This document shows, piece by piece, positions 8,810 through 54,198 of a stretch of 64,000 nt of DNA (positions are counted from its first letter, which is position 1; each line of letters starts with the position of its first letter). The stretch comes from a virus: the IMG/VR virus record IMGVR_UViG_3300045988_127881. One strand, 5' to 3'. Below the pieces are notes generated by a model, which did not search any database, was not told the origin of the DNA, and saw only the letters and a list, made by a program, of their open reading frames with translations. The translations under genes and the position numbers were made by a program.

Positions 8810-8940
8810 GCAAAGCGCACTTTGTCGCTTGTGGAGGGCCGCAAATGTCAGTGACAGACAAACACAAAGCACACCAACAAACAACACGACACGCCCAAAA
8901 CACGGCTAAAATACACGTGTCTTTGTGCTTGTGCTTTCCT

Positions 8941-9000
8941 CTCTTTGTCTGTCTGTCTCTTTGTCTCTTTGTCTCTTTGTCTCTTTGTCTGTCTGTTTTT
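8941..9000. repeat. 8-bp tandem repeat (CTTTGTCT)n flanked by GTCTGTCT units
   Basis: ctctttgtctgtctgtct(ctttgtct)x4 gtctgtctgttttt. It creates the spurious low-complexity ORFs 8787..9062 and 8845..9072. Confidence 0.85.
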
Positions 9001-9106
9001 CCTTTCGTACCCGTCCCGTTTTGCCTGAATGCACGTGTTAACAACCAGTTAAATTCATACATAGAACGTTAAATGCAAGGATGTAGGGAAATTAGTTGCT
9101 TGTTTA

Positions 9107-9331: not shown

Positions 9332-9850
9332 ATGGATAATGTAAAGACTTTAGGCGCTCTCAAGAGAGGTGCAATAACCGAGTTAAACGAATTTTTTGCA
9401 AAACCTACAGAAGTATTTAAGGCGCTCCGAGAGATAGCAAAAGATAAAGAGTCTAATTTGTACGCGATTCTTTGCGAGTTAGGCGTAAAACCCTCTAAAA
9501 TCGGTTTTAATTCGTTTGGTAGGTTTTGCGTCTCATTCGGCGGAAACGCTGAGATAGTTTGCGAAGCAATAAAACGCACGAATGGTATAACATACAAAAG
9601 CTATACTATATGTGACAGACAACCAAAAAAGTATATTGATTTACTCGTGCAATTACTCAAAGAAAAGAGAAAGCGAGAAAGCTATGCTACAAGGTGGCAA
9701 AAACACTTTGAGGCACGCGCCGCAAAGGAAGACAAAGCGAACGAAAAGCGTGTAAAAGCACTTGAAAAAATGGTGTCTGAACTCGTAAAATGCGGTTTGC
9801 CCGCTGAAATTGCAAGGGCGAACGCTGTAAACATTTTGAAAATCGCCTGA
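9332..9850 (+). CDS. hypothetical protein
   Basis: In-frame ATG at 9332 within track ORF 9299..9850 (MDNVKTLGALKRG...). Followed by a strong terminator. Confidence 0.65.
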   Translation: MDNVKTLGALKRGAITELNEFFAKPTEVFKALREIAKDKESNLYAILCELGVKPSKIGFNSFGRFCVSFGGNAEIVCEAIKRTNGITYKSYTICDRQPKKYIDLLVQLLKEKRKRESYATRWQKHFEARAAKEDKANEKRVKALEKMVSELVKCGLPAEIARANAVNILKIA

Positions 9851-9855
9851 ACTTG

Positions 9856-9887
9856 TAGACCTCCCAAAAATGGGAGGTCTATTTTTT
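9856..9887 (+). terminator. intrinsic terminator
   Basis: TAGACCTCCCA-aaaa-TGGGAGGTCTA followed by TTTTTT. Confidence 0.8.
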
Positions 9888-9890
9888 GCC

Positions 9891-10543
9891 CTTTATGGTA
9901 CACGGATTCCGTTCGATTCGGAGTAAGGGCACAACATATTTAAGCACTTACAAAGTGCTTAAAGGCGTGCAAAATGCACGCTGCACGACTACAAACCGCG
10001 ATTTGTTGGCAGTTGGCCGCGTTGGCTGATAACTTACAAAGTGCGTGCAAAGTGGGACAAATAGCCGCGTTGGCTACCTACTTATGCACAACCTTTGGCA
10101 AATTGTATGGAGGTTGTACGGCAAATTCGCTCTTTGACTTATTGGACAAAAAAATATTGGTTTGCCTGTAATGTATACAGGCGTGCACGCACTCGCTTAA
10201 ATAGTTCGGGGTGCGTGCCGAATCCTCGTAACTATTCGCGTGCTATTTTAGTGCGTTGCCGGCCGTTTTAAATAGGTTGAATCTAAATACATTAATTACG
10301 GACGCATCCGTGATTGATTCGGGTAATTTTGACGGCTTTATACCTTCCTATTTTGTACACAAAATCCGAAAGGAACAAAAGTGCACGCGCCCAGTTTGGG
10401 CCGTATGGTAAAAATAGGGCAAAACTTTTCCCTCGTGTAGGGGTTTTTGGCCGTGCCTTTATGGCAAGGAACGGACAAACAGCGGAAATACAAAGAGAAA
10501 CGAGTAATTTTTTTTTGGTGGAATGGTTAACCACCTGACGTAA
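9891..10543. repeat. ORF-poor region dense in dyads and short direct repeats
   Basis: Hairpins at 9940-9962 (10 bp), 9965-9981 (GCGTGCA/TGCACGC) and 10165-10181. Direct repeats GCCGCGTTGGCT (10016, 10064) and ACTTACAAAGTGC (9946, 10032). Many GCGTGC motifs. 16-bp palindrome ATTTTGTACACAAAAT near 10350. Confidence 0.6.
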
Positions 10544-10603
10544 CACGTACGCACGCGAAAATTCGTGTGTACGTGCAAGTATTAACCAATAAAAAATAAA
10601 AAT

Positions 10604-10843
10604 ATGTCTTTTTGGTGTTATGACAAAAAAGCAATTTCTTGTATGCGTGAAAACGCAAACAAGATAGAATTTATTTTGCTGCCTCTTGGCGGCAACTTTG
10701 ACAGCCATGTTAACAACGTTATTACTAACGTTGAGAATTTTGGCTGCACATACGACAGCACAAACGAAATTTTAGAGGACTTCGTTTGGGAAGCAAAGAG
10801 ATACGTTGAGTATGTTATTAAAACGTACTACAAAAACGTATAA
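10604..10843 (+). CDS. hypothetical small protein
   Basis: 79-aa ORF preceded by a 12-bp hairpin (10544-10575) and TTAACCAATAAAAAATAAAAAT. Confidence 0.6.
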   Translation: MSFWCYDKKAISCMRENANKIEFILLPLGGNFDSHVNNVITNVENFGCTYDSTNEILEDFVWEAKRYVEYVIKTYYKNV

Positions 10844-10882
10844 CGATGACGCAAGCAATTTGTTTTGCTTGCGTCAACTTTA

Positions 10883-10918
10883 TTATCAACCCTATAAAAC
10901 CAATAAAAATGAAAGCTA
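10883..10918 (+). repeat. 36-nt exact repeat, copy A (box + first 10 nt of ORF)
   Basis: ttatcaaccctataaaaccaataaaaatgaaagcta, identical to 11423-11458. Confidence 0.9.
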
Positions 10919-11178
10919 TTGAACTGTTGAAAAGAGTCACAAAACACGATTCGGAATGTCATGTTTGCTATATCTATGATATGGCAGATATGGATGTAGT
11001 AAGCGGAACTTTTGACAAAAAAGCTGAATATTTACTCACAGAAAAACCATTCCGTGATGCTTTTGGCATACATGTGACTTCAGATTGCGCCTTATACGGC
11101 GCAATTTACAGCGAAACGCTGTGCGCTCCCAAAGAGCCAGAGAATAAACTATGGTTTGCGTACATCATTGAGGACTAA
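10909..11178 (+). CDS. hypothetical small protein
   Basis: The ATG after the box (MKAIELLKRVTKHD...) is preferred. The track start at 10846 lies inside the hairpin 10848-10875. Confidence 0.6.
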   Translation: MKAIELLKRVTKHDSECHVCYIYDMADMDVVSGTFDKKAEYLLTEKPFRDAFGIHVTSDCALYGAIYSETLCAPKEPENKLWFAYIIED

Positions 11179-11234
11179 AAGGTATTCGGGTGTTTGACGC
11201 GCCCGAATGCTACGAAAACCAAAAAACCAATGAT

Positions 11235-11384
11235 ATGAAAGATTTAGTACTTCTTATTTCTGTAATAGCATTTGCAATCAGTTTGTTATGCTGTAATTTC
11301 CTCGCCATTGTGGCAAGTTTAATCCCGTTTTTCAGTGCCTTCATACCAGAGTTGTATGATGGCGCAAAAGAGGAAATGCCGTAA
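11235..11384 (+). CDS. small membrane protein (49 aa)
   Basis: ATG after hairpin 11182-11210 and AAAACCAAAAAACCAAT. One hydrophobic helix (LVLLISVIAFAISLLCCNFLAIVASLIPFF). Confidence 0.5.
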   Translation: MKDLVLLISVIAFAISLLCCNFLAIVASLIPFFSAFIPELYDGAKEEMP

Positions 11385-11422
11385 TTCTATCGCCTGCAAT
11401 TTGGTTTGTAGGCGATAGCTTT

Positions 11423-11458
11423 TTATCAACCCTATAAAACCAATAAAAATGAAAGCTA
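11423..11458 (+). repeat. 36-nt exact repeat, copy B
   Basis: Identical to 10883-10918. It precedes an ORF non-homologous to the one after copy A. Confidence 0.9.
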
Positions 11459-11871
11459 CATTAAAATTCAGTTTCGGCAATGTTGTAATGTCTTCACGCT
11501 TAGTTGATGGCGATTATCAATTTAATGGAGACGACTCCCGATTTAACCATCACTACCGCTTTCAGGTAAGAATCCAATTTAATGAGAATGTAAGATATTT
11601 CTCTTATTGGACCTCATTCGAGGACTGGAGAAACGGGAAAGAACAACTTGACGAGTCCGACTACATGAACGCATTAAATTGCGTATTGTCGGACTCATAC
11701 GCTGCACAGTGTTCATTTAAGGACTTTTGCAGCGAGTTCGGTTATAGTGATGATAGCATCAAAGCCTTGAAAACATACAAGGAATGTAAGCGAAATGCTG
11801 AAAGACTTAATAAACTATTCAGCGGTTTGGATTTATTGTCGGTCCAAAACGAACTCGAAGAAATGATGTAA
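11449..11871 (+). CDS. hypothetical protein
   Basis: 140-aa ORF after hairpin 11387-11418 and the box. Confidence 0.65.
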   Translation: MKATLKFSFGNVVMSSRLVDGDYQFNGDDSRFNHHYRFQVRIQFNENVRYFSYWTSFEDWRNGKEQLDESDYMNALNCVLSDSYAAQCSFKDFCSEFGYSDDSIKALKTYKECKRNAERLNKLFSGLDLLSVQNELEEMM

Positions 11872-11934
11872 AAAACCGACACACCTCTTGCAAGGTGTGT
11901 CGGTACATTGTTTAACCCACTTAAAACCAATAAG

Positions 11935-12180
11935 ATGAAGATTTTCAGTGAACAAAGTTTGCGCCATTTCGATTTTTGGGGTGGTGCTCAGGAAAATGCA
12001 AATGAATTGTCATGGGAACAATTCGACAACCTTGAATCAATTCTCGAAGATGCCTATCCCGATGGCATTGACGCAACCGACTTGAATGACATGATGTGGT
12101 TCGAGTTCGACACCATCAAAGAATGGTTAGGAATCGAGGACGAAGAAGACGAGGACGAAGAAGACGAAGAAGAAGACTAA
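11935..12180 (+). CDS. small highly acidic protein (DNA-mimic / anti-restriction candidate)
   Basis: 81 aa from the ATG after the box. Asp/Glu rich, ending in EDEEDEDEEDEEED. Confidence 0.55.
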   Translation: MKIFSEQSLRHFDFWGGAQENANELSWEQFDNLESILEDAYPDGIDATDLNDMMWFEFDTIKEWLGIEDEEDEDEEDEEED

Positions 12181-12245
12181 AAACAGGGTGCGCATTGTCG
12201 AAAGTGCGCACCCTGCAATTTATAAACCAATTAAAACCAAATATT

Positions 12246-12560
12246 ATGACATACGTAGTTAATAACAGCGAATGCGGAGACAAGAATTTCAAAGTGTACC
12301 TGTGGACAGGCGCAGGCTACAATGTAGCCATGTTTGAAGTCTTCGCATTTAACGAAGGACACGCATTGGAGTGCGTATTAGCATATTGCGAGGAAAAAGC
12401 CCTTTGTGGGCTGTATACCACAGAAGAACAAATAGACGAAGACCTTACAGACGAAGAACGGGACGAACTTTATTACTACATCGACCCCACAATGGAAGAT
12501 AAAAAGGCATTCTCTGCATACGTCCTTCTTGAAAATCTTATGATTGAAAAGGTTGCGTAA
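12246..12560 (+). CDS. hypothetical acidic protein
   Basis: ATG after hairpin 12184-12215 and the box (MTYVVNNSECGDK...). The track start at 12096 is an upstream extension overlapping the previous gene. Confidence 0.6.
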   Translation: MTYVVNNSECGDKNFKVYLWTGAGYNVAMFEVFAFNEGHALECVLAYCEEKALCGLYTTEEQIDEDLTDEERDELYYYIDPTMEDKKAFSAYVLLENLMIEKVA

Positions 12561-12642
12561 TGCAACATGCGTAGTGTTTAGTAGGCTGTGCGGCTTTATT
12601 GTCGCACAGCTAACTTTTTAACCACTAAAAACAAAACCAATT

Positions 12643-13131
12643 ATGAAAAATTTATCAGAACTCAGCACAAGCGAACTGCTCAACGTAATAGAGGATAACG
12701 AAACCCTGTCAAACAGGCTTTACGAACTCATAGAGCAATCCGCTATGGGTTGGGTAGGCGAAAAGTTAGAAGTAATTAGAAACTCTCTTAAAGATTGGAG
12801 CATAGGTTTCTATAATTACAACTTCCTCGATGTCGTTGACTACGAAAAGTTTGTGGACTCACTCGTAGAGTATAAAGGCATTTTCGGCCTGTCAGACAAG
12901 GCTGACAAACTATTGTCGCACTGTCTGAAACTGCGATGGAGCAACCTTTTCGATTACTATGCCGAAAGGCTAAAGGATTTAATCCTCGATGAGGAATTTA
13001 ACAGCGAAACGGATATAGACTACAACAATATGGAGTACTACACCGAAATCTACGCTGACCAATTCGATGATTACCTAATCAATGACGATGGCGAAATCAT
13101 ACAACAAACCATTGTCGGGCATGTCGCATAA
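12643..13131 (+). CDS. hypothetical acidic protein
   Basis: 162-aa ORF after hairpin 12582-12612 and the box. Confidence 0.65.
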   Translation: MKNLSELSTSELLNVIEDNETLSNRLYELIEQSAMGWVGEKLEVIRNSLKDWSIGFYNYNFLDVVDYEKFVDSLVEYKGIFGLSDKADKLLSHCLKLRWSNLFDYYAERLKDLILDEEFNSETDIDYNNMEYYTEIYADQFDDYLINDDGEIIQQTIVGHVA

Positions 13132-13199
13132 CAATGCTTGGGCGTATTTATACACGCCCAAGCAACACAATTTTTTAACCCACTTAAAACCAATAAATT

Positions 13200-13955
13200 A
13201 TGAGAATGTACAGCGACGCGAAAGGATTCACAATGATTGACGGAACTCTTACAGAAGTGACATTAAAAAAATTGATTGTCACCCGTCAAAGTGTCGAAGA
13301 CGAGGAATACGAAGTAACAACCATTTTCCAAGGTCCTGACGGCAAAGAGCACAGCTCTCAAATCCCTATACAGATGTATAGTAGTGTCGAGGATTACGAA
13401 AAAGGAGAACAGGCGTGCTATGAAGTTTGTAGCTCGCCTTTCTACATCCGTCCCGACGGATTCCGAGGCATTGACGAAGCATGGATTTTCGTTGACGGAG
13501 AACCTGTGACAATAGACATCAGACCTTTGGAAGTAGTTTACGACTACGAACAAAGAACTTGGACTTGTGAAGGCGTTCCTCAAACGAATATCTTCCGTAC
13601 TAAAGAAGAATGCCTGTCTTTCAACGAGTATGACGTAAAACATGCCGACGGCAGCGTTACAAAGCGTGTCGGTATCAACAAACTCGTAATGCTCGACAAC
13701 GACCAAATGGCGTTATTCGACACGCTGAAACAGACAATTCAGCAACTCAAAGACAACAATGTATTGTTGATGCCTGACTACGATGGCGACATAAGAGCAT
13801 TTAACCTCCGTAATGTCAAAGAATGGGACTGCGATTATGACGAACCCGAAGAAGGAGAAGGCTTTGAAGAAGTGTCACGCGAACACGATTCCTTCCAAGG
13901 AATCAGCATTCCAGCATATTCCTTGGATTGCCACCTCTGCATGAAGCGTAAGTAA
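13200..13955 (+). CDS. hypothetical protein, paralog of 15702..16484
   Basis: 251 aa. Shares TKEECLS(F/Y)NEY, A(F/Y)N(L/V)R and a terminal (M/I)KRK with the 15702 gene. Confidence 0.7.
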   Translation: MRMYSDAKGFTMIDGTLTEVTLKKLIVTRQSVEDEEYEVTTIFQGPDGKEHSSQIPIQMYSSVEDYEKGEQACYEVCSSPFYIRPDGFRGIDEAWIFVDGEPVTIDIRPLEVVYDYEQRTWTCEGVPQTNIFRTKEECLSFNEYDVKHADGSVTKRVGINKLVMLDNDQMALFDTLKQTIQQLKDNNVLLMPDYDGDIRAFNLRNVKEWDCDYDEPEEGEGFEEVSREHDSFQGISIPAYSLDCHLCMKRK

Positions 13956-14022
13956 CCACATTCCCCACGTCCATTGTCGGGCGTGGGGAAACGTATTATC
14001 AACCACTTAAAACCAATTTACA

Positions 14023-14382
14023 ATGAAACAGAATAAAAACAAAGTGCCTGTTTATTATGCGTATGTGGCCTCATCTCCTTTCAATGGCGAAAGATTCGAC
14101 CTCGAAACGCTGAATTATGACAGCCTTTTGCAACGCATGATTCCTCGTGACAAAGGAAACATTTGCCTTAATTTCGTTTTCAGCAAGCTGCGCAAATGCG
14201 ACAAAATAATGTCGGAAAATGAAAGGTACGCTCTCATAATAAACAATGCACCTTTCGGAGTTAGGCTCGATTTATATCGCAAAATAACGGAAAAGGAAAT
14301 AAAGGAAACTATTCAGCGAGTGGGTGTCACCCGTTTCGCCATCAAAGAAGTACAAGATATTGCAAAATCAATGGGACTTTAA
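14023..14382 (+). CDS. hypothetical protein
   Basis: 119-aa ORF after hairpin 13961-13990 and the box. Confidence 0.65.
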   Translation: MKQNKNKVPVYYAYVASSPFNGERFDLETLNYDSLLQRMIPRDKGNICLNFVFSKLRKCDKIMSENERYALIINNAPFGVRLDLYRKITEKEIKETIQRVGVTRFAIKEVQDIAKSMGL

Positions 14383-14387
14383 GCACA

Positions 14388-14419
14388 TTTGCCGTGTGGT
14401 CGTAAAACTACACGGCAAA
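14388..14419 (+). terminator. cassette hairpin (12 bp), homologous to 15639-15668
   Basis: TTTGCCGTGTGG-tcgtaaaa-CTACACGGCAAA, then CCATTTTCAACCACCTAAAACCAAT. Confidence 0.6.
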
Positions 14420-14450
14420 CCATTTTCAACCACCTAAAACCAATCCAAAA

Positions 14451-15245
14451 ATGAAAAAGTACAAATTAACTGACGAAACAACTATTGCCCTTGGTGTTAC
14501 ACTTTATAGAATTGTAGCACTAATTGACTTTGCTGACGTGAAAAAAGGCGACAAAGGAGGATTTGTAAAATCTGAAGAAAACCTTTCACAAAATGGCGAT
14601 TGTTGGGTCTATGGAGATGCTAAGGTATTTGACAGAGCCAAAGTCTTTGAAGATGCCAAGGTATATAGCAAAGCTGAGGTATATGGCGATGCCGAGGTAT
14701 ATGGCAAAGCTCGAGTCGATAACAAAGCTCGAGTCTTTGGCAATGCTTTTGTCTTTGGCAATGCTTATGTCTTTAGCTATGCTGAAGTCTGTGACTATGC
14801 TATTGTCTGTGAAGATGCTGCCGTACATGGCTATGCTGCTGTCTTTGGCGAAGCTACAATAGGCGACAGCGCTCGTGTATGGGGCAATGCTGAAGTTTAT
14901 GGCAACTCTGAAATATGTGACAATGCTCATGTAGGTGACAATGCTGAAATCTGTGGCAATACTAAAGTCTTTGGAGATGCTGGAGTCTTTGGAGATGCTG
15001 AAATCTATGGCGATGCTGAAATAAGTGGTCAAAGTGACTACATAGTATTCAAAAATTGGTGGAGCAGCGGACGTTACTTCACTTGGACACGAAGCAACAA
15101 CAAATGGAAAGTTGGTGACTTCTATGGAACTGGCGAAGAATTGATAAGGAAAGCCTATGCCGATAGCAAAATGAGCGGAAAAGAGTACGAACGCATCGTG
15201 AAATATGTTGAGAGTATACTCAATGATGATGCTATTTCTATCTGA
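14451..15245 (+). CDS. hexapeptide-repeat (beta-helix) protein, paralog of 53455..54198
   Basis: About 24 consecutive 6-residue repeats of xAxVxG type (GDAKVF DRAKVF EDAKVY...). Conserved C-terminal domain DYIVFKNWWSSGRYFTWTRSNNKW. Confidence 0.75.
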   Translation: MKKYKLTDETTIALGVTLYRIVALIDFADVKKGDKGGFVKSEENLSQNGDCWVYGDAKVFDRAKVFEDAKVYSKAEVYGDAEVYGKARVDNKARVFGNAFVFGNAYVFSYAEVCDYAIVCEDAAVHGYAAVFGEATIGDSARVWGNAEVYGNSEICDNAHVGDNAEICGNTKVFGDAGVFGDAEIYGDAEISGQSDYIVFKNWWSSGRYFTWTRSNNKWKVGDFYGTGEELIRKAYADSKMSGKEYERIVKYVESILNDDAISI

Positions 15246-15345
15246 TTTTGCTAATCTTATGAAATGAAGGAATCTTATTGCGTATCACTTTTGTCGGTGA
15301 TACGCAAACTTTGTATAACCTATTAAACCAATAAAGCAAAACAAC

Positions 15346-15567
15346 ATGAAAGCAAAAGAATTTTTGAAAGACCTGCTTCGATTGGATTTGGTCACTGGCT
15401 CAACCTATATGAAGTCATCATACGAATTGAAGATAATCAGTGGCGAGCTAAAGCCAAGGTCGCTGTATTATTTCTCATTCAAAAAAAGTGACTTGAAGGC
15501 CGAGCCTGACGTAACGCTTACTTTAGGAGGTGGAGATGTCCAGTACCTCTGGAAAATTGAGTCGTGA
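15346..15567 (+). CDS. hypothetical small protein
   Basis: 73-aa ORF after hairpin 15278-15307 and the box. Confidence 0.55.
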   Translation: MKAKEFLKDLLRLDLVTGSTYMKSSYELKIISGELKPRSLYYFSFKKSDLKAEPDVTLTLGGGDVQYLWKIES

Positions 15568-15638
15568 AACACGCGGGAACGTTTCTTGCAACGCCTGCCG
15601 CATTTGCAAGGAATGTAATTTTTCAACAACTAACCTTA

Positions 15639-15668
15639 TTGTCGTGTGGTCTTAACATCACACGACAA
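15639..15668 (+). terminator. cassette hairpin (11 bp), homologous to 14388-14419
   Basis: TTGTCGTGTGG-tcttaaca-TCACACGACAA, then ACCATTTTATTAACCACTAAAAACAAACCAAT. Differs from the 14388 copy by a compensatory C:G to T:A change. Confidence 0.6.
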
Positions 15669-15701
15669 ACCATTTTATTAACCACTAAAAACAAACCAAT
15701 T

Positions 15702-16484
15702 ATGATGACCTACAACGAAAACTCATGCGAAATTTTCTCTACTAATGAAGCTTTCTTCTTCGACGAAGAAAAAGCTCAGTTACTACAAGTTCTACTTGTA
15801 GAAACTCATTTCATACGCGATAGCAAGTCCCTGGGAACAGTCCATGCACGAACCTACGCAAAAGTCGTGGACAGCGATAAAATTATCGAAATTGAAGAAA
15901 CCGAGGTCTATGCGTCAAGGCTCGATTTTGAAAGAGGGAAACGTCTTGCATGCAGCACAAACAACCCGTTCAAATGTCTTGCTGCCTCGTATGGAAGTGA
16001 CGTGGTTTGGACATTCCAGCACGGGTGTCCTGTTTCACAAAAAGTGTCGGATATAAAAGTTGTCAAATACGACTACGATTATGACCGATTCACAAGTACC
16101 GAATTACCCGACAGAGAACACATCTACCCAACAAAAGAAGAATGCCTCTCTTACAACGAATACGAAATTGTCGACGAGGAAGGAACTCGCACAATAAAAG
16201 GTTGTAATGCACTCATTCAATTAACAAGAGAACAGGAGGAACTTGTAAAGCAGTTCGAGCAACTTTGCAAAAAAATGCAAGACGAGGGTATTTTGCTCGC
16301 AAGTAATTGCTGCGAAGCATTCAGAGCATACAACGTGCGCGATTGTCAAGATTACGAGTTCTACTTCACAAACGAAGCATCTGAAGATTTTGAGCAATGC
16401 GACCGAGATTGCGGACGATACGTAAACGCACAAAACATCTACGAGAGCGGAGACGATTTTGAACTCTACATCAAACGCAAGTAA
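15702..16484 (+). CDS. hypothetical protein, paralog of 13200..13955
   Basis: ATG after the box (MMTYNENSCEIF...). The track start at 15564 runs through the hairpin. Confidence 0.7.
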   Translation: MMTYNENSCEIFSTNEAFFFDEEKAQLLQVLLVETHFIRDSKSLGTVHARTYAKVVDSDKIIEIEETEVYASRLDFERGKRLACSTNNPFKCLAASYGSDVVWTFQHGCPVSQKVSDIKVVKYDYDYDRFTSTELPDREHIYPTKEECLSYNEYEIVDEEGTRTIKGCNALIQLTREQEELVKQFEQLCKKMQDEGILLASNCCEAFRAYNVRDCQDYEFYFTNEASEDFEQCDRDCGRYVNAQNIYESGDDFELYIKRK

Positions 16485-16545
16485 TCCAATCCTGCCAAGT
16501 CGCTAAACACTTGGCAGGTACACAAACCAACAAAAACCAATTATT

Positions 16546-16845
16546 ATGAAAGAAACTCTGTTAAAGACACTCCGTTTGAACAATCGCGACTATCTGAAAA
16601 TTCTACATAGGACAAAACAGACTATTATTGATTATGTCGCAAGCAAAGGCAATAACTACGAGTTCAAAAAATACTACGGCCACTTAATGACAAGGCATAG
16701 TAAGGAAACTTTCGTAATCCGAAGAATATCCGTAAATAGAGGAATAGCAAACGTATATAGCGACTACAATTATTGGTTCTACTTAGATGACTTCGATTTA
16801 CAAAATCTGAACAAAATAATTGAGGCGCTATCAATAGACGAGTGA
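16546..16845 (+). CDS. hypothetical protein
   Basis: 99-aa ORF after hairpin 16491-16518 and the box. Confidence 0.6.
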   Translation: MKETLLKTLRLNNRDYLKILHRTKQTIIDYVASKGNNYEFKKYYGHLMTRHSKETFVIRRISVNRGIANVYSDYNYWFYLDDFDLQNLNKIIEALSIDE

Positions 16846-16908
16846 TTAAAATGCAGCATAATTTTGTTATGTGCTGCATACCTCACAACCCAACTAAAAC
16901 CAATTAAC

Positions 16909-17223
16909 ATGAAAAGTTTATTAGAACTATCCGAAGAACATCGTCAGATGCTTAACGACATCTCCGACAAGGACATGTGCGCCATCGAAACGTTCTTGCA
17001 ACATCGCGAAAGGAACACCTACTATTTCCGTACAGCTGTCAAACTGCACGACATTGTCAACAATCTCACATTCAAGGCCATCGGGGTAGGTATCACACAC
17101 AAAGGGACTTTATCCGCTATAATTGACGAATATTATAGCATAGACCTCATGCAATTCGACTACCTGTCAATTAACCGGGTCTTAATGCAAATCGGCATGG
17201 AAACAGACAACAAGGTGAGCTGA
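16909..17223 (+). CDS. hypothetical protein
   Basis: ATG after hairpin 16851-16879 and the box (MKSLLELSEEHRQ...). Confidence 0.6.
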   Translation: MKSLLELSEEHRQMLNDISDKDMCAIETFLQHRERNTYYFRTAVKLHDIVNNLTFKAIGVGITHKGTLSAIIDEYYSIDLMQFDYLSINRVLMQIGMETDNKVS

Positions 17224-17262
17224 TACAAGGCAGCGCGAGGGGTTCGACTCTCCTCACACCTG
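17213..17262 (+). ncRNA. tRNA-like minihelix (T-arm plus imperfect acceptor stem)
   Basis: T-arm AGGGG-TTCGACT-CTCCT (17238-17254). Flanking AGGTGAG/CACACCT pair at 6 of 7 positions. Occupies the slot where other cassettes have a plain hairpin. Confidence 0.3.
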
Positions 17263-17297
17263 CAAAACCAACAAACCAACTTAAAAAAACCAACGCA

Positions 17298-17606
17298 ATG
17301 GATAAAAATATTGCCAGCAATACACTTACAGACAAGTTAAGGAATGACGCAATCTCATCTATCAATGAATATTGCAAAGAACTTGACTTCGACGGAGTTC
17401 TCCGCCTCAACAATCCTATACAAGGCTACAACGTCCACACAAATGAGCCTATTACCATTGTGGGTGTCCGTATCGGCACAGACAACGCTGCATTAAGTGT
17501 TGAAGCGAAAGGATATATCATTGATTATGCCTACGAATTACAGGACGCTGACATCAACTCGCTACTTTCCATTTCAGTAGCTATTATGGACGGACTTACT
17601 TATTAA
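17298..17606 (+). CDS. hypothetical protein
   Basis: 102-aa ORF with an A/C-rich box-like leader. Confidence 0.6.
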   Translation: MDKNIASNTLTDKLRNDAISSINEYCKELDFDGVLRLNNPIQGYNVHTNEPITIVGVRIGTDNAALSVEAKGYIIDYAYELQDADINSLLSISVAIMDGLTY

Positions 17607-17834
17607 AATCTCTCCTAATGTGGCATTTGGTTGACACATTGGGGCATCTCAAACCAACTAAAATCACGTACAACGCCAAAAATGGCATTGTCGCACACCC
17701 TCCGTATTACAAAAACAACTATATTTGCAATTAGTACAGATAAAGAACAACGCTGATAATATTTTTCATTCTATCATTAGTGGTGCGGATTTACTTCCAT
17801 GCCACTAACCATGTTTAACCAATTAAAACCAATA

Positions 17835-18581
17835 ATGAGATATTTTTTTTATTACGCGTCTGTTGCCTATATACAGGATACCTATAACAAAAGGTTCTTG
17901 GATAAATTTAGAAGTGAAGGAGATTATCGTAAGCTACTACTAATAGCTGAGACCTATGACTCATACGGTGCCATAGACTTGAAATACACCTATAAAAGTG
18001 CTACGCATAACAATGGTGACACTTTGCTGATAGAAGATGAGCATTACGCTTTGACGTATAATTCTTCAAATGGCGGCACCTATGAGTTGTTTCGCAAGGA
18101 GACAGGAATAGGACTCCGTAACTATATTGCTCAAAACGGATTACCTTCTGAGGTATCAAAGGACATTGAAGAGTTGGCAAAATCGCACTCAGAACCGACC
18201 CCAAAAATTAAGGCAAAGGAAATCGTTAGCGCCATTTTCAAGTACGGGCTGTTAAGCGCATACGAGGCGTGCGAGCTAAAAGAGGAGTACAAAACCCTAT
18301 CCGACAAAAAGAAAAAGTATAAAGGCTGGACCACTGAGGAGAAATACCTTAGTGATAACTGCATCACGCCCATAGCTTACGGCATGATTGTTTGTGGCGC
18401 ACTATGCGCCATCTGTTTCCTTGCTTGCATTGGCTCTGTATTTCTCATCTCCGCCTGTGGGTGGGGTGGTGCAGTAGTCTATGCTGCACTTCTTTTCATC
18501 GTCCTTTACATAGCCTCTATTTACTTCTACCAGAGGTTCTATTGGTACGAAATGCCTAAGTATAACATCGAAAACAGATAA
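17835..18581 (+). CDS. membrane-anchored hypothetical protein
   Basis: ATG after the box (MRYFFYYASVAY...). Two to three C-terminal hydrophobic helices. Confidence 0.6.
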   Translation: MRYFFYYASVAYIQDTYNKRFLDKFRSEGDYRKLLLIAETYDSYGAIDLKYTYKSATHNNGDTLLIEDEHYALTYNSSNGGTYELFRKETGIGLRNYIAQNGLPSEVSKDIEELAKSHSEPTPKIKAKEIVSAIFKYGLLSAYEACELKEEYKTLSDKKKKYKGWTTEEKYLSDNCITPIAYGMIVCGALCAICFLACIGSVFLISACGWGGAVVYAALLFIVLYIASIYFYQRFYWYEMPKYNIENR

Positions 18582-18592
18582 CACACACCATC

Positions 18593-18805
18593 ATGACTAT
18601 AATTGCTATTATTTGCGTCCTTATTATTGCAGCTCTCTTTTTCGGGGGTCTCTGGTATATTGCAGCACTCATCATCGGCATTCCGCTCGCCTATGGCTTG
18701 CACAAGCTTCTCATGATGTTCTTCGCTGACTATTTCAAGAAGAAACTTCAGAAATACTGCGAAAAGAAAGGACTGACTTTCGACCTTGACGAACTGCCCG
18801 ACTAA
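18593..18805 (+). CDS. small membrane protein
   Basis: 70 aa with two hydrophobic helices (IIAIICVLIIAALFFGGLWYIAALIIGIPLAYGL). Confidence 0.55.
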   Translation: MTIIAIICVLIIAALFFGGLWYIAALIIGIPLAYGLHKLLMMFFADYFKKKLQKYCEKKGLTFDLDELPD

Positions 18806-18874
18806 ACCTGTGTCGAGAAAAGCCATCACTTGTGTTGTTACAAGTGATGGTACTATTACCAATAAAACCAATTT

Positions 18875-19720
18875 ATGAAAACAACCCTTTATGAAGCATA
18901 CAGGAAAAAATACCCTAACTATGCAGATAAAACCAAAGAAAGGTTCGTAACCTCCACAGGGTGCGATTTTACTTGGGGTAACATGACCAAGTCTAACCTT
19001 TACGACTATGTCAGCTATCTAAAGACGGTCATGGCAAAGTCGTCAGCACGCACAATGTGCGCAATGCTAAAATCTGTCTTGCGCACCTACGAAGATGAGA
19101 TTACGCTACCAAAAAATTGGGAAGATTCCATCTACGTCAAAAAGGAGGCTTCTCAGCAAGTATTCCTCTCCGACGACGAAATCAAAATGGTTTCTAACTA
19201 CAACCCAACAACCGAAAAAGAGCGCATCGTGAAAACAATGTTTCTCTTGGGTTGCCTTACAGGGGCAAGACACTCCGACTTCTTGAAGTTCTCTAAAGCA
19301 AATATCACGCAGGAGGGCTTTTTAAGATACGTGTCCATCAAGACGCACATCGAGGCTATTGTCCCCATAGCACCAATGGTTAACAGGCTGATTGACGACT
19401 TGTCTGCCATCAAAGACACTTCTATGGCCGACACCACATTCAACCGAATATTACGGGATATTTGCCAAAGTGTGGGCATCGACTCCGAATGCACGCTTTA
19501 CAGGAGGGGCGAATTTTCCACGTCCAACAAATGTTGCTTTGTGTCATCACACGCTGCACGCAGGTCTTTCGCCACAAATCTCTACCTTAGAGGGGCTGAC
19601 CTTTACTCCATCTCCAAAATGATGGGACATTCCTCTGTCGACATGACAGCTGGATATATTTGTTGCGGACTACGAAACCTCTCACCCGAAGTTAAAGATT
19701 ACTTTGAACAATTTTGTTGA
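18875..19720 (+). CDS. tyrosine recombinase (short, no arm-binding domain)
   Basis: Catalytic set visible: GARHSD (R), SHAARRSF (HxxR), GHSS (H), AGYI (Y). Preceded by hairpin 18823-18850 and the box. Confidence 0.75.
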   Translation: MKTTLYEAYRKKYPNYADKTKERFVTSTGCDFTWGNMTKSNLYDYVSYLKTVMAKSSARTMCAMLKSVLRTYEDEITLPKNWEDSIYVKKEASQQVFLSDDEIKMVSNYNPTTEKERIVKTMFLLGCLTGARHSDFLKFSKANITQEGFLRYVSIKTHIEAIVPIAPMVNRLIDDLSAIKDTSMADTTFNRILRDICQSVGIDSECTLYRRGEFSTSNKCCFVSSHAARRSFATNLYLRGADLYSISKMMGHSSVDMTAGYICCGLRNLSPEVKDYFEQFC

Positions 19721-22594: not shown

Positions 22595-22673
22595 ATTTCA
22601 AAAAATAAAGTAGTACTTTTGTAGCGTCAATCTTCATTGACACCAAAATTTATTGGTTTTTTTTGTTAATAGT

Positions 22674-22702
22674 AGCCCAGGCTAAAAGCCTGGGCTTTTT
22701 TT
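22674..22702. terminator. hairpin at end of tape-measure gene
   Basis: AGCCCAGGC-taaaa-GCCTGGGCT, with a T7 run on the plus strand overlapping the TMP stop. On the minus strand it is followed by the box-like TTAACAAAAAAAACCAAT (reverse complement of 22651-22670). Confidence 0.55.
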
Positions 22703-53454: not shown

Positions 53455-54198
53455 ATGGAGAAATACAGATTAACTGATGAGACCATAGACTTTTGCGATG
53501 CAACGTTATATAGAATCGAAGCTCTTAGGAACTTTGGTTCAATAAAAGCTGGTGACAAAGGTGGATTTGTGCAATCATATCATAATCTATCACAAGAAGG
53601 AGATTGCTGGATCCATGGCGAAGCTAAGGTCTTTGGTAACGCTAAAGTCTATGAGAATGCACAAGTATTTGGCAGAGCAGAAGTCTGTGGCTACGCTTCT
53701 GTCAAAGGCGACGCTTTTGTCTTTGGCATAGCAAAAGTTTATGGTAGCGCTTTTGTCAAAGGCAACGCTTTTGTCTTTGGCAGAGTAGAAGTTTATGACT
53801 GGGCTAAAGTCTATGGGAAAGCACAAGTATTTGGCGATGCTAAAGTCTATGGGAAAGCACAAGTATTTGGCGATGCTAAAGTCTATGGTAACGCTTTTGT
53901 ACATGGTGACGCAGAAGTCTATGATAAAGCAGAAGTCTTTGGCGTGGCATCAGTCTATGGTAACGCTTTTGTTAAAGGCGACGCTATAATTAAAACAGGC
54001 CGAGATTATATAGTTTTCAAAAATTGGTGGAGCAGTGACCGCTATTTTACATGGACACGAAGCAACAATATGTGGAACGTTGGTTGTTTCTATGGCACTG
54101 GTAAAGAACTCATCAAGAAAGCCTATGCGGATAGTGAAGATAGCGGAAAAGAATATGAACGAGTAGTGAGATATGTGGAGAGCATTCTTGCAGACTAA
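53455..54198 (+). CDS. hexapeptide-repeat (beta-helix) protein, paralog of 14451..15245
   Basis: Same N-terminal (YRLTDET...KGDKGGFV) and C-terminal (DYIVFKNWWSSDRYFTWTRSNNMW) domains as the 14451 gene, with xAxVxG repeats. Confidence 0.75.
   Translation: MEKYRLTDETIDFCDATLYRIEALRNFGSIKAGDKGGFVQSYHNLSQEGDCWIHGEAKVFGNAKVYENAQVFGRAEVCGYASVKGDAFVFGIAKVYGSAFVKGNAFVFGRVEVYDWAKVYGKAQVFGDAKVYGKAQVFGDAKVYGNAFVHGDAEVYDKAEVFGVASVYGNAFVKGDAIIKTGRDYIVFKNWWSSDRYFTWTRSNNMWNVGCFYGTGKELIKKAYADSEDSGKEYERVVRYVESILAD
53803..53888 (+). repeat. perfect 36-bp tandem duplication (2.4 copies) within beta-helix gene
   Basis: gctaaagtctatgggaaagcacaagtatttggcgat at 53803-38 and 53839-74, then a partial third copy. 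Confidence 0.9.

What the first reader, a model, noticed from the sequence alone, without database searches (positions are those of the whole stretch)
10544..18877. About 17 consecutive small genes punctuated by hairpin + conserved A/C box cassettes
Every intergenic gap between 10.5 and 18.9 kb has the same three-part layout.

(i) A perfect or near-perfect 9-13 bp GC-rich stem-loop. Each has a different sequence and most lack a T-tract. Coordinates: 10544-75, 10848-75, 11182-210, 11387-418, 11874-903, 12184-215, 12582-612, 13136-63, 13961-90, 14388-419, 15278-307, 15639-68, 16491-518, 16851-79, 17613-44, 18823-50.

(ii) A conserved purine-poor box 3-15 nt later, consensus AACC(A/C)nnTAAAACCAAT.

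(iii) The ATG 2-12 nt after the box.

The box is neither the Bacteroides TAnnTTTG promoter nor a Shine-Dalgarno sequence. It is essentially missing from the 42-60 kb operon, where leaders are merely A-rich (one weak match before 54560). It recurs on the minus strand after the tape-measure terminator (reverse complement of 22651-22670), ahead of the TerS-like gene.

This resembles the promoter-stem-loop (PeSL) cassettes of T4-like hyperplastic regions. I do not know of such a box in Bacteroidales phages. The cargo is small acidic or membrane proteins, which is the usual profile of anti-defence or host-takeover genes.
Basis: partly seen in the sequence, partly recalled or inferred. Interest (0 to 1): 0.72.

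Follow-up and report, generated by a model that had tools for sequence, protein, structure and literature searches.

The report
Hairpin-plus-leader cassettes punctuating phage accessory genes
In a temperate phage of gut Prevotella-like bacteria, about 17 small accessory genes are each separated by an RNA hairpin followed by one conserved G-free leader that looks like an idealised Bacteroidia ribosome-loading site, and these repeated spacers are where related phages have swapped, lost or gained genes.

Summary
In 10.5-18.9 kb, 15 gaps hold a 10-13 bp hairpin (z -3.3 to -7.3). It is followed 3-15 nt later by TTATTAACCACTTAAAACCAAT, then 1-7 nt (once 13), then ATG. The box is in 10 of 17 leaders, against 0.00 in composition-matched shuffles, and is absent from 333 kb of host-like DNA.

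It is not a host promoter: TAnnTTTG marks other promoters here but occurs in only 4 of 101 distinct leaders, inside the hairpin. It does not match the host rrn boxA or 16S rRNA, and the adjacent Xer-like recombinase is not an integron integrase.

Anchored on ATG, the box puts A at -14 to -11 (0.64-0.89) and at -3 (0.76), with almost no G. That is the published register of Shine-Dalgarno-less Bacteroidia initiation regions. The hairpins show G.U over A.C (41:7) and compensatory changes, so they act in the sense RNA.

In about 20 related phages and prophages the layout is conserved while gene content differs. Breakpoints fall in the spacers.

Best reading: an intercistronic RNA hairpin plus an optimised translation leader that also serves as a recombination linker. 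This is a promoter-less analogue of T4 PeSLs. The transcript and translation roles are inferred, not shown.

The parts
9332..9850 (+). Conserved 172-aa basic protein (pI 9.6), called 'c1' here. It has its own TAtcTTTG promoter (9131) and a canonical terminator (9855-9882), and lies directly upstream of the array in all relatives. Candidate regulator; a link to the box is not shown.
   Evidence: No Pfam hit. AF2 pLDDT 67 and no fold match.
10324..10331 (+). Candidate host-type promoter -7 box TAATTTTG upstream of the whole array. No ORF is called between it and the first hairpin.
   Evidence: conserved in close relatives; gene calls.
10544..10603 (+). Cassette 1. Hairpin 10544-10575, weak box AACCAATAAAAAATAAA 10584-10600, ATG 10604. 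It lies in the 5' UTR of the array, not after a gene.
   Evidence: z -3.9.
10604..10843 (+). Gene, 79 aa, pI 5.0, no family.
10847..10908 (+). Cassette 2. Hairpin 10847-10876, box 10888-10904 (0 mismatches), ATG 10909.
   Evidence: z -6.4.
10909..11178 (+). Gene, 89 aa, pI 4.9.
11181..11234 (+). Cassette 3. Hairpin 11181-11211, box variant AAAACCAAAAAACCAAT 11215-11231, ATG 11235.
   Evidence: z -4.7.
11235..11384 (+). Gene, 49 aa, hydrophobic (membrane-like).
11387..11448 (+). Cassette 4. Hairpin 11387-11418 (loop TTTGGT), box 11428-11444 (0 mismatches), ATG 11449.
   Evidence: z -5.4.
11449..11871 (+). Gene, 140 aa, phrog_4273 (unknown function).
11875..11934 (+). Cassette 5. Hairpin 11875-11904, box 11915-11931, ATG 11935.
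   Evidence: z -5.2.
11935..12180 (+). Gene, 81 aa, pI 4.1.
12184..12245 (+). Cassette 6. Hairpin 12184-12215, box 12225-12241, ATG 12246.
   Evidence: z -7.3.
12246..12560 (+). Gene, 104 aa, pI 4.1.
12584..12642 (+). Cassette 7. Hairpin 12584-12611, long box variant AACCACTAAAAACAAAACCAAT 12620-12641, ATG 12643.
   Evidence: z -3.4. Compensatory change in relative L121.
12643..13131 (+). Gene, 162 aa, phrog_14286 (unknown function).
13135..13199 (+). Cassette 8. Hairpin 13135-13164, box 13178-13194, ATG 13200.
   Evidence: z -6.0. Three compensatory pairs in L128.
13200..13955 (+). Gene, 251 aa, paralogue of 15702-16484.
13961..14022 (+). Cassette 9. Hairpin 13961-13990 (loop ATTGTC), box 14001-14017 (0 mismatches), ATG 14023.
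   Evidence: z -4.2.
14023..14382 (+). Gene, 119 aa, pI 9.5.
14388..14450 (+). Cassette 10. Hairpin 14388-14419, box 14428-14444 (0 mismatches), ATG 14451.
   Evidence: z -5.3.
14451..15245 (+). Gene, 264 aa, hexapeptide-repeat beta-solenoid (PF00132, phrog_7964). Its paralogue at 53455-54198 has no cassette in front.
15278..15345 (+). Cassette 11. Hairpin 15278-15307 (loop TTTGTC), box variant 15316-15332, a 13-nt A-rich spacer, ATG 15346.
   Evidence: z -3.3.
15346..15567 (+). Gene, 73 aa.
15639..15701 (+). Cassette 12. Hairpin 15639-15668, box variant AACCACTAAAAACAAACCAAT 15680-15700, ATG 15702.
   Evidence: z -4.6.
15702..16484 (+). Gene, 260 aa, paralogue of 13200-13955.
16491..16545 (+). 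Cassette 13. Hairpin 16491-16518, box 16525-16541, ATG 16546.
   Evidence: z -6.0.
16546..16845 (+). Gene, 99 aa. Absent from relatives L122 and L124, with the deletion junction inside the box/ATG region.
16851..16908 (+). Cassette 14. Hairpin 16851-16879, box 16888-16904, ATG 16909.
   Evidence: z -3.3.
16909..17223 (+). Gene, 104 aa.
17224..17297 (+). Cassette 15 (atypical). A tRNA-3'-half-like structure (T-arm GAGGGG/TTCGACT/CTCCTC plus acceptor strand, about 17230-17263), then three AACCAAC repeats, ATG 17298.
   Evidence: z -2.2. Relatives carry T-arm hairpins or an intact tRNA-Val at the same kind of site.
17298..17606 (+). Gene, 102 aa, pI 4.3.
17613..17834 (+). Composite gap.
- Hairpin 17613-17644, degenerate box 17652-17668 and a short ORF (a decayed cassette).
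- Canonical promoter TATATTTG 17720-17727.
- Imperfect hairpin about 17777-17808, perfect box 17817-17833, ATG 17835.

Here the hairpin and box lie in a 5' UTR downstream of a host-type promoter.
17835..18581 (+). Gene, 248 aa with a C-terminal hydrophobic segment. Replaced by a 123-aa gene in L122-L124.
18593..18805 (+). Gene, 70 aa, hydrophobic. Preceded by an 11-nt gap with no hairpin and no box.
18823..18874 (+). Cassette 17. Hairpin 18823-18850, box variant TTACCAATAAAACCAAT 18856-18872, ATG 18875.
   Evidence: z -4.2.
18875..19720 (+). 281-aa Xer-like tyrosine recombinase, the last gene preceded by a cassette. Conserved at the end of the array in relatives.
22652..22696 (-). Minus-strand copy. 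Tape-measure terminator hairpin 22674-22696, then box-like TAACAAAAAAAACCAAT 22668-22652. Conserved in relatives. It is 14 nt before a 21-codon ORF and 58 nt before the 172-aa ORF.

Best explanation
The array is one or two polycistronic transcription units of a temperate siphovirus of Prevotellamassilia/Prevotella-like Bacteroidales. Candidate promoters lie at 10324 and 17720. Each intercistronic spacer is a two-part RNA-level expression cassette.

**1. The hairpin.** It is a stable sense-strand stem of about 12 bp with a hexaloop. It starts 2-6 nt after the upstream stop codon in most gaps (by inspection of the coordinates). It most likely does three things:
- it isolates the leader from upstream sequence;
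- it acts as a partial attenuator;
- it protects an RNA end.

It is not an efficient terminator.

**2. The leader.** It is G-free and predicted to be unpaired. Its conserved core places an A-run at -14 to -11 and an A at -3. It therefore acts as an idealised Shine-Dalgarno-independent Bacteroidia translation-initiation region, so every accessory gene gets an autonomous, strong start.

**3. The side effect.** The same roughly 25-nt leader is repeated 16 times. The spacers therefore also serve as homology linkers. Recombination there, plausibly by the phage's own Erf/exonuclease/SSB system, deletes, inserts and replaces whole gene cassettes without damaging their expression.

**Shown here:** the anatomy, the enrichment, the register relative to ATG, the strand-specific structural constraint, the absence of host-type promoters, and the cassette polymorphism with breakpoints in the spacers.

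**Inferred:** the translational role, the fate of the hairpin in the transcript, and the recombination enzyme.
For: **Register**
- In 91 distinct leaders, A is 0.64, 0.89, 0.80 and 0.76 at -14 to -11, and 0.76 at -3. G is at most 0.14 from -28 to -1 and at most 0.10 from -24 to -1.
- In Flavobacterium johnsoniae, A is over-represented at -14 to -11. A at -3, -6, -12 and -13 are positive determinants of translation, and low structure helps (PMC6847099).
- The A peak is in the same place, but weaker, in 68 non-array genes of this phage (0.53-0.59 at -14 to -12).
- Host-like genes have G-poor, A/C-rich leaders.

**Structure**
- The leader is unpaired in the MFE fold and the centroid of 14 of 16 gaps.
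- Internal non-Watson-Crick pairs are G.T 41 against A.C 7.
- Compensatory changes are seen.

**Not a promoter**
- TAnnTTTG marks 12 or so sensible intergenic sites in the window.
- It occurs in only 4 of 101 distinct cassette leaders, each time inside the hairpin.
- Two hairpin-plus-box units (10544 and 17777) lie in 5' UTRs directly downstream of host-type promoters with no upstream ORF. The unit is therefore transcribed, and the hairpin cannot be an efficient terminator there.
- In L130 and L142 some cassettes hold a canonical TAccTTTG promoter between the hairpin and the A-rich leader, which places the leader inside the mRNA.

**The cassette belongs to the context, not the gene.** The hexapeptide gene's paralogue at 53455 has no cassette.

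**Recombination**
- Related genomes keep the layout while differing in cassette content and order.
- Eighteen of 35 homology breakpoints fall in the 20% of sequence that is spacer (p = 4.5e-5). It is 18 of 24 once HSP ends inside the repetitive hexapeptide gene are set aside.
- Hybrid boxes are seen at junctions.
- The phage encodes Erf, a RecE-like exonuclease and SSB.
Against: - No transcript or translation data exist.
- The box is far more sequence-specific than a translation-initiation region needs to be: the AACC and CC positions are conserved, and none of 207 host-like genes has it. A specific binding factor therefore cannot be excluded.
- The 5' half (T-run + AACC) is not explained by the initiation-region register.
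- Hairpin loops share a TTG motif (9 of 16, against 3.9 in shuffles; CAA 0). This hints at loop recognition that the model does not need.
- Host start codons were called crudely, which blurs the host profile.
- Breakpoints lie on either side of the hairpin, and short-homology recombination cannot be told apart from site-specific exchange within the box.
- The promoter at 10324 is only a motif match.
Confidence: 0.55

Rival explanations
1. True PeSL analogue. The box would be a promoter for a non-canonical holoenzyme (a phage-modified RNA polymerase or an unrecognised sigma factor). Each gene would be its own transcription unit, starting at or just before the ATG as a leaderless or near-leaderless mRNA and ending at the next hairpin.
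For: - The layout of hairpin, then conserved 22-nt element, then gene mirrors T4 PeSLs.
- The box is phage-specific and absent from host DNA.
- Box-to-ATG spacing of 3-6 nt would put a start site near the ATG.
- Six of 16 hairpins have a nearby T-run.
Against: - There is no TAnnTTTG element.
- No sigma factor or RNA polymerase was found among the roughly 70 proteins scanned.
- Spacing of 1-7 nt, and 13 nt in three leaders, is too loose for precise leaderless starts.
- The same A-run register is present in non-array genes inside tight operons.
- Where relatives do carry a promoter in a cassette, it is the canonical one and lies upstream of the leader.
- Most hairpins lack an adjacent U-tract.
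Confidence: 0.12
2. Operator for a phage-encoded regulator. One version is a 'stoperator'-like DNA site that blocks elongation in lysogens. The other is an RNA operator, using the box and/or the TTG hairpin loop, for a translational repressor or an antiterminator. The conserved basic protein at 9332-9850 would be the candidate binder.
For: - The motif is asymmetric, about 17-22 nt long, in a single orientation and present in nearly every spacer.
- It consists of two AACCA half-sites 10 nt apart.
- It is more conserved than an initiation region needs to be and is absent from the host.
- The loops share TTG on the sense strand only.
- A conserved basic protein with its own promoter and terminator sits just upstream of the array in all relatives.
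Against: - There is no box at the immunity switch 42.3-42.6 kb or near the array promoter. A repressor-type stoperator system would be expected to have one there.
- The function of the 172-aa protein is unknown: no Pfam hit, AF2 pLDDT 67, best Foldseek E-value 0.34.
- Loop-to-box complementarity is no better than in shuffles.
- The tight register to the ATG is what a translation signal predicts, although it would also suit a translational repressor.
Confidence: 0.15
3. Integron-like system. The Xer-like tyrosine recombinase at 18875-19720 would catalyse site-specific insertion and excision of gene + hairpin cassettes at the box.
For: - The array consists of promoter-less small ORFs in one orientation.
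- Each is followed by a hairpin whose sequence varies while its shape stays constant.
- A tyrosine recombinase is conserved at the end of the array.
- Cassette content and order differ between relatives.
Against: - The recombinase scores 34 bits against the integron-integrase model, whose cut-off is 265.
- The hairpins are perfect short stems without R/L core sites. This was read by eye; no attC model was run.
- The conserved box is a direct repeat outside the hairpin, not an inverted core site.
- Breakpoints are spread over both edges of the spacer and into the first codons.
- The recombinase is itself preceded by a cassette, in the same orientation. It is not divergent with an attI and a Pc promoter.
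Confidence: 0.05
4. Nus-type processive antitermination. Each spacer would be a boxB-like hairpin plus a boxA-like linear element, as in rrn leaders and lambda nut sites.
For: - The order hairpin then T-rich/AAC linear box recalls rrn boxB-boxA.
- TTTAAC(C/A)A resembles E. coli boxA CUUUAACAA (from memory).
Against: - Host-clade rrn leaders were fetched, including Prevotellamassilia timonensis. They carry CGATCTTTGA(A/G)A after the promoter (repeated in the spacer of L312), which differs from the G-free phage box.
- The TTTAAC core is not constant; TATCAAC and TTTCAAC also occur.
- One nut site per operon would suffice.
Confidence: 0.03

Closest known systems
PeSL (promoter-early stem-loop) cassettes of T4-like phages (Arbiol et al. 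2010, PMC2839356; Comeau et al. 2014, PMC4122927)
   Same: - Both are short composite intergenic cassettes: a stem-loop plus a conserved expression signal plus the start of the next gene.
- Both are concentrated in a hyperplastic region of small ORFans.
- In both, closely related phages differ by indels and replacements bounded by the cassettes, and chimeric cassettes are found at junctions.
   Different: - The conserved signal here is not a host-type promoter (TAnnTTTG is absent). It sits in the register of a translation-initiation region.
- There is no Shine-Dalgarno sequence.
- The stem-loop always lies 5' of the signal, whereas PeSLs have five positional subclasses.
- The host phylum is Bacteroidota, and the phage is a temperate siphovirus rather than a lytic T4-like myovirus.
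- Promoter and terminator activity and mini-circles were shown for PeSLs. Nothing has been shown experimentally here.
Shine-Dalgarno-independent translation-initiation region of Bacteroidia (Baez et al. 2019, PMC6847099)
   Same: Both have an A-run at -14 to -11, an A at -3, little G, little secondary structure and no upstream AUG.
   Different: Host initiation regions are a loose compositional signal. Here a near-identical 17-22-nt sequence, with fixed AACC and CC positions, is repeated 16 times and is absent from host genes.
Linker or boundary sequences of the modular theory of phage evolution (lambdoid phages; from memory, not checked in a paper here)
   Same: Both are short conserved intergenic sequences at module borders where homologous exchange occurs.
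   Different: Here the linker recurs at single-gene resolution, with a fixed hairpin partner and a probable expression function.
Integron gene-cassette arrays (attC sites with an IntI integrase)
   Same: Both are one-orientation arrays of mostly promoter-less small ORFs. Each ORF is followed by a hairpin of variable sequence, and a tyrosine recombinase lies next to the array.
   Different: The recombinase is not IntI, the hairpins lack attC core sites by eye, and the conserved element lies outside the hairpin. Breakpoints are not at one fixed position.
Stoperators of cluster A mycobacteriophages (L5 gp71; from memory)
   Same: Both are asymmetric 13-17-bp motifs present in many short intergenic regions, in one orientation relative to transcription.
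   Different: No copy lies at the immunity switch, no binder is known, and the position is locked to the start codon.
Intercistronic processing hairpins of the T7 early operon (RNase III sites; from memory)
   Same: Both are polycistronic phage transcripts with a stem-loop in each intercistronic gap that could define stable mRNA ends.
   Different: Stems of 10-13 bp are shorter than canonical RNase III substrates. No processing data exist.

Membership tests
PeSL cassettes (T4-like phages) | Contains a promoter matching the host primary-sigma consensus | tested here: not met
   The host-type -7 box TAnnTTTG is found at about 12 sensible intergenic sites in the window. It occurs in only 4 of 101 distinct cassette leaders, each time inside the hairpin.
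PeSL cassettes (T4-like phages) | Stable intergenic stem-loop as part of the cassette | tested here: met
   Fifteen hairpins of 10-13 bp, z -3.3 to -7.3. Compensatory changes.
PeSL cassettes (T4-like phages) | Concentrated in hyperplastic ORFan regions and lying at indel or replacement borders between close relatives | tested here: met
   (18 of 35 breakpoints in the 20% of sequence that is spacer, p = 4.5e-5).
PeSL cassettes (T4-like phages) | Stem-loop terminates transcription; cassette drives transcription; mini-circles form | not testable with these tools
   This needs reporter assays, Term-seq, or PCR across circular junctions.
Bacteroidia SD-less translation-initiation region | A enrichment at -14 to -11 and at -3/-6, G depletion, no SD | tested here: met
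   compared with PMC6847099. The same register is seen in non-array phage genes.
Bacteroidia SD-less translation-initiation region | Unstructured around the start codon | tested here: met
   The leader is unpaired in the MFE fold and the centroid in 14 of 16 gaps.
Bacteroidia SD-less translation-initiation region | Raises translation of the downstream ORF | not testable with these tools
   This needs ribosome profiling or reporter fusions.
Integron (IntI + attC cassettes) | Integrase belongs to the IntI family | tested here: not met
   TIGR02249 scores 34 bits against a cut-off of 265. PRK15417 scores 15 bits against 435.
Integron (IntI + attC cassettes) | attC sites: imperfect hairpins with conserved R''/L''-L'/R' cores and extrahelical bases | tested here: inconclusive
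   By eye the stems are perfect or G.U-only, with no shared core at the stem base. No attC covariance model was available. Rfam gave nothing.
rrn/lambda boxB-boxA antitermination site | Linear element matches the host boxA | tested here: not met
   The host-clade rrn leaders carry CGATCTTTGA(A/G)A. The phage box is G-free.
Intrinsic (Rho-independent) terminator | GC-rich hairpin immediately followed by a U-tract | tested here: inconclusive
   Six of 16 pass a lax test (at least 5 T in 8 nt starting 0-2 nt after the stem). In the others the T-run is 3-8 nt away or absent. Two units lie in 5' UTRs, where efficient termination would silence the array.
Stoperator system (mycobacteriophage L5 type) | The same motif serves as operator at the immunity promoter and is bound by the phage repressor | tested here: not met
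   There is no box of 10 bits or more in the intergenic switch 42321-42620. The switch carries GCATATAGC-type palindromes instead. Binding was not testable.

The most novel reading that the evidence does not exclude
The box, and perhaps the shared UUG hairpin loop, would be the recognition site of a dedicated phage factor. Candidates are the conserved basic protein at 9332-9850, or the Xer-like recombinase acting on DNA. In that case the array would be either a coordinately switched accessory-gene regulon, controlled by a translational operator or antiterminator repeated before every gene, or a phage-borne integron-like cassette-capture platform in Bacteroidales.
Probability: 0.15. Interest if true: 0.75.

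Novelty: new variant of a known kind. Interest (0 to 1): 0.5.

Why it matters
- The array shows, at single-gene resolution, how a temperate gut phage keeps a pool of accessory genes exchangeable. It is widespread: its integrase is indexed in 189 blocks of the assembly collection. A repeated expression spacer guarantees that any gene dropped between two spacers is translated.
- It extends the PeSL 'mobile regulatory cassette' idea from lytic T4-like coliphages to Bacteroidales phages. The shared signal here is a translation leader rather than a promoter.
- The box may be a natural, compact, strong Shine-Dalgarno-independent initiation region, with an insulating hairpin. That would be directly useful for multi-gene expression in Bacteroides and Prevotella, where ribosome-binding-site design is still empirical.
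- The cassettes offer a simple sequence handle for finding the hypervariable accessory loci of this phage group in metagenomes.

Tried and rejected
1. **Known phage.** Megablast of 10-30 kb against INPHARED found nothing.
2. **Scan of IMG/VR for the bare box.** Anchoring on proteins worked instead.
3. **Host sigma-A promoter in the cassettes.** Rejected.
4. **E. coli-type sigma-70 scan.** Uninformative: 44 hits against 33 expected.
5. **Integron integrase.** Rejected.
6. **boxA/Nus site.** Rejected after fetching host-clade rrn leaders.
7. **Base-pairing of the box with 16S rRNA.** The longest complement is 7 nt, at position ~1080, and none of 9 nt or more exists even with G.U allowed.
8. **Loop-to-box kissing or pseudoknot.** Mean complementarity is 4.00 nt, against 3.88 +/- 0.10 for shuffled loops and 4.12 for reversed loops.
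9. **Rfam.** No family at gathering threshold, and only chance-level hits at E up to 1.
10. **Function of the 172-aa upstream protein.**
    - It has no Pfam hit.
    - It has 186 homologues, and the 120 best listed are at least 73% identical.
    - The AF2 model is poor (pLDDT 67).
    - There is no significant PDB fold match; the best are weak winged-helix-like hits at E = 0.34.
11. **Cargo function.** No Pfam or NCBIfam family except the hexapeptide repeat. Homologues of two cargo proteins are scattered over phages of unrelated hosts. Bacteroides phage BF766P1, which shares the hexapeptide gene, has tightly packed genes (gene table only; its DNA was not scanned for cassettes).
12. **'The hairpin always travels with the upstream gene'.** Not upheld. 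Of 14 hairpin families, 4 have more than one upstream family and 4 have more than one downstream family.

Full report
**Context**

The window is most of a lambdoid-style temperate siphovirus. It carries these genes:
- a tape-measure protein at 22701-30137(-), a major capsid protein, the large terminase subunit and a portal protein;
- an integrase at 40324-41538(-) and a CI-like S24 repressor at 41592-42320(-);
- a rightward operon with Erf, a RecE-like exonuclease, SSB, Ant, NinG, a DnaD-like loader and a methyltransferase;
- a D5-like primase at 6705-8186(-).

No close relative exists among deposited phages. The same integrase is indexed in 189 blocks of the assembly collection. Three of the contigs read (L149-L151) show it integrated beside a tRNA and host genes for GH95, peptidase M20 and TrkA.

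The host TrkA is 91-93% identical to that of Prevotellamassilia, 'Prevotella' and Alloprevotella MAGs. A homologue of one phage protein is annotated in Prevotellamassilia timonensis.

**Check of the observation**

- Fifteen gaps fold into one isolated 10-13 bp stem-loop, with z -3.3 to -7.3 against dinucleotide shuffles.
- In 14 of 16 gaps the sequence from the hairpin to the AUG is unpaired in both the MFE fold and the centroid.

The box is strongly enriched.
- There are 29 matches against 5.1 expected in whole-window shuffles.
- This also holds against the A/C-rich background. Ten of 17 leaders have it at up to 1 mismatch, against 0.00 in letter shuffles of the same leaders.
- A position weight matrix built from the window gives 13 hits of 17 bits or more inside 8.3 kb. 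It gives none in 333 kb of host-like chromosome.

Aligning 64 distinct leaders from the window and its relatives extends the motif to TTATTAACCACTTAAAACCAAT. The AAAACCAA core is nearly invariant and there is no G at all. Hairpin end to box start is 3-15 nt. Box end to ATG is 1-7 nt, plus three at 13 nt.

Corrections:
- The box is G-free and A-rich, not purine-poor.
- One 11-nt gap (18582-18592) has no cassette.
- One gap (17224-17297) has a tRNA-3'-half mimic instead of a plain hairpin.
- The long gap 17607-17834 holds a decayed cassette, a canonical promoter and a second hairpin + box.

**Is the box a promoter?**

Bacteroidales promoters are recognisable by the -7 element TAnnTTTG. In this window it marks about a dozen sensible intergenic sites. 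These include the divergent immunity switch, the structural operon, the terminase operon, the primase and the gene at 9332.

Within the array it occurs only upstream of the first cassette (10324) and in the long gap (17720). Across the relatives, 4 of 101 distinct cassette leaders contain the pattern. Each time it lies inside the hairpin, 50-64 nt from the ATG. No sigma factor or RNA polymerase was found among the roughly 70 proteins scanned.

Two hairpin + box units (10544 and about 17777) sit in 5' UTRs right after host-type promoters, with no ORF upstream. The unit is therefore part of the transcript there, and the hairpin cannot be an efficient terminator.

In the more distant relatives L130 and L142, a few cassettes do carry a canonical TAccTTTG promoter. 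It lies between the hairpin and the A-rich leader, which puts the leader in the mRNA. The defining promoter component of a PeSL is therefore not met.

**What the box looks like when anchored on the start codon**

In 91 distinct leaders, A frequency is 0.64, 0.89, 0.80 and 0.76 at -14 to -11, and 0.76 at -3. G is at most 0.10 from -24 to -1.

Ribosome profiling in Flavobacterium johnsoniae showed several things (PMC6847099):
- Bacteroidia lack Shine-Dalgarno sequences.
- They have an A-rich motif at -14 to -11.
- A at -3, -6, -12 and -13 and low secondary structure raise translation.
- AUG is avoided near start codons.

The 3' half of the box, with its 3-6-nt spacer, reproduces that register. 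The 68 non-array genes of this phage peak at the same place but more weakly (A 0.53-0.59 at -14 to -12). Several have recognisably related leaders, for example TAACACCAAAAACCAAACAAT-ATG at 54560 and TAACAAAAAAAACGAATAAATT-ATG at 57131. Host-like genes have G-poor, A/C-rich leaders but never the box itself.

I therefore read the box as an idealised, phage-specific version of the Bacteroidia initiation region. This is an inference from position and composition. It does not explain the conserved AACC and the T-run of the 5' half.

**The hairpins act in the sense-strand RNA**
- Among 82 distinct hairpins, internal non-Watson-Crick pairs flanked by Watson-Crick pairs are G.T 41 times and A.C 7 times. 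A double-stranded DNA palindrome should show no such asymmetry.
- Orthologous hairpins keep pairing through compensatory changes. One example is three double changes in the hairpin after the 162-aa gene in L128, which 4 of 500 shuffles reach.
- Stems cluster at 11-13 bp and loops at 6 nt.
- Only 6 of 16 pass a lax hairpin + T-run test.
- The loops share a sense-strand TTG: 9 of 16 against 3.9 in shuffles, with CAA at 0. I cannot explain this. Pairing between loop and box is no better than chance.

**Relatives and recombination**

I anchored searches on three genes flanking the array: the recombinase, the primase and the 172-aa upstream gene. This gave about 20 related phage or prophage loci, with 71-100% primase identity. 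All keep the layout. Hairpin end to ATG is mostly 23-38 nt and box to ATG 3-6 nt. In the most distant relatives the motif decays to TTATTAACC..AAAAC..CAAT.

Gene content differs between relatives:
- L121 lacks four or five cassettes.
- L122 and L124 lack the 99-aa gene.
- L124 and L141 have an extra 118-aa gene, and L121 an extra 62-aa gene.
- The 248-aa gene is replaced by a 123-aa gene in L122-L124.
- Gene order differs in L128 and L133.

The same gene can carry different box variants, and hybrid boxes are seen at junctions.

Of 35 distinct homology breakpoints, 18 lie in the 20% of the array that is spacer (p = 4.5e-5). Eleven of the others are HSP ends inside the internally repetitive hexapeptide gene. 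Breakpoints occur on both sides of the hairpin.

The phage encodes an Erf/exonuclease/SSB recombination module. That module could use such short homologies, but this step is inferred.

**Rivals tested**
- *Integron-like system.* The recombinase at the end of the array is a generic Xer-like enzyme: 34 bits against the 265-bit integron-integrase cut-off. By eye the hairpins lack attC cores.
- *boxA/Nus site.* Host-clade rrn leaders carry CGATCTTTGA(A/G)A, unlike the G-free box.
- *Pairing with rRNA.* No complement of 9 nt or more exists in 16S rRNA.
- *Stoperator.* There is no box at the immunity switch.
- *Known RNA family.* None found.
- *Dedicated binding factor.* This remains possible. The box is more specific than an initiation region needs to be, and the loops share a motif. 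A conserved basic 172-aa protein of unknown fold also precedes the array in every relative.

**Verdict**

The feature is real, non-random and conserved. It works like a PeSL in evolution, as an exchangeable single-gene cassette bounded by a repeated expression spacer. It is not a PeSL in mechanism, because the repeated signal is most likely a translation leader on a polycistronic RNA, paired with an RNA hairpin.

It is a new variant of a known kind. Its interest is moderate: it gives a clean natural example of Shine-Dalgarno-independent intercistronic design and of linker-mediated gene shuffling in an abundant gut phage. Nothing is known about what the cargo does.

Noticed in passing
window 42564-42634 (+): ARAGORN calls a tRNA-like gene with a four-base anticodon 'cagg' (tRNA-???). 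It lies between the early-right promoter (TATCTTTG at 42437) and the first ORF (ATG 42663). It is followed by a TTAACTAAAACC leader that resembles the box.
   Followed up: partly
window about 17230-17263; L130 (flipped) gaps before 13847 and 14234; L142 8457-8545: A tRNA 3'-half mimic (T-arm + acceptor strand) replaces the usual hairpin in one array gap. L130 has two T-arm hairpins (GGAGGTTCGATTCCTCC) in successive gaps, and L142 has an intact tRNA-Val in its array region. These are probably decayed phage tRNA genes sitting in cassette positions.
   Followed up: partly
window 8918-9017: Five copies of an approximately 8-nt CTCTTTGT iteron-like repeat lie in a non-coding stretch next to the D5-like primase. 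This may be a replication origin.
   Followed up: no
window 9939-10085: The non-coding region between the terminator of the 172-aa gene and the candidate array promoter holds three different direct repeats, each in two copies: ACTTACAAAGTGC, GCGTGCAAARTG and GCCGCGTTGGCT. It also holds an 11-bp palindrome. The arrangement looks operator-like.
   Followed up: no
array hairpin loops, e.g. window 10859-10864, 11400-11405, 13973-13978, 15290-15295: The stems all differ, but the loops share a sense-strand TTG / WTTGNY motif. It is in 9 of 16 loops, against 3.9 in letter shuffles, and CAA never occurs. This is unexplained. Complementarity to the box is not above chance.
   Followed up: yes
window 14451-15245 and 53455-54198: The hexapeptide-repeat beta-solenoid gene in the array has a paralogue (about 67% nt identity) in the rightward operon. 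The paralogue has an ordinary leader and no hairpin or box. Homologues occur in Streptococcus, Bacillus, Liberibacter and other phages.
   Followed up: partly
window 13200-13955 and 15702-16484: Two paralogous acidic proteins of 251 and 260 aa lie within the same array. Recombination between them may explain the large deletion in L121.
   Followed up: partly
window 17613-17734: This is a decayed cassette: a hairpin, a degenerate box (AACCAACTAAAATCACG) and a short ORF. The canonical promoter at 17720 follows it.
   Followed up: partly
L130 (flipped) about 15190-15267; L142 array region about 7735: Some cassettes in distant relatives hold a canonical TAccTTTG promoter between the hairpin and the A-rich leader. 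These are true terminator-promoter-leader cassettes, closer to PeSLs.
   Followed up: partly
L149, L150, L151 (lysogen contigs), 11216-11730 of L149: The prophage junction shows the integrase next to a tRNA gene on the opposite strand, followed by host genes (GH95, peptidase M20, TrkA, Na+/H+ exchanger). This fixes the element as an integrating phage of a Prevotellamassilia/Prevotella-like host.
   Followed up: partly
window 9332-9850 and homologues P0001-P0120: The 172-aa protein upstream of the array varies from 73 to 97% identity in relatives. In at least one relative sampled (L235-L239) the neighbouring primase has the same 493-aa length; its identity there was not measured. This may mean fast evolution of a specificity or immunity determinant.
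   Followed up: no
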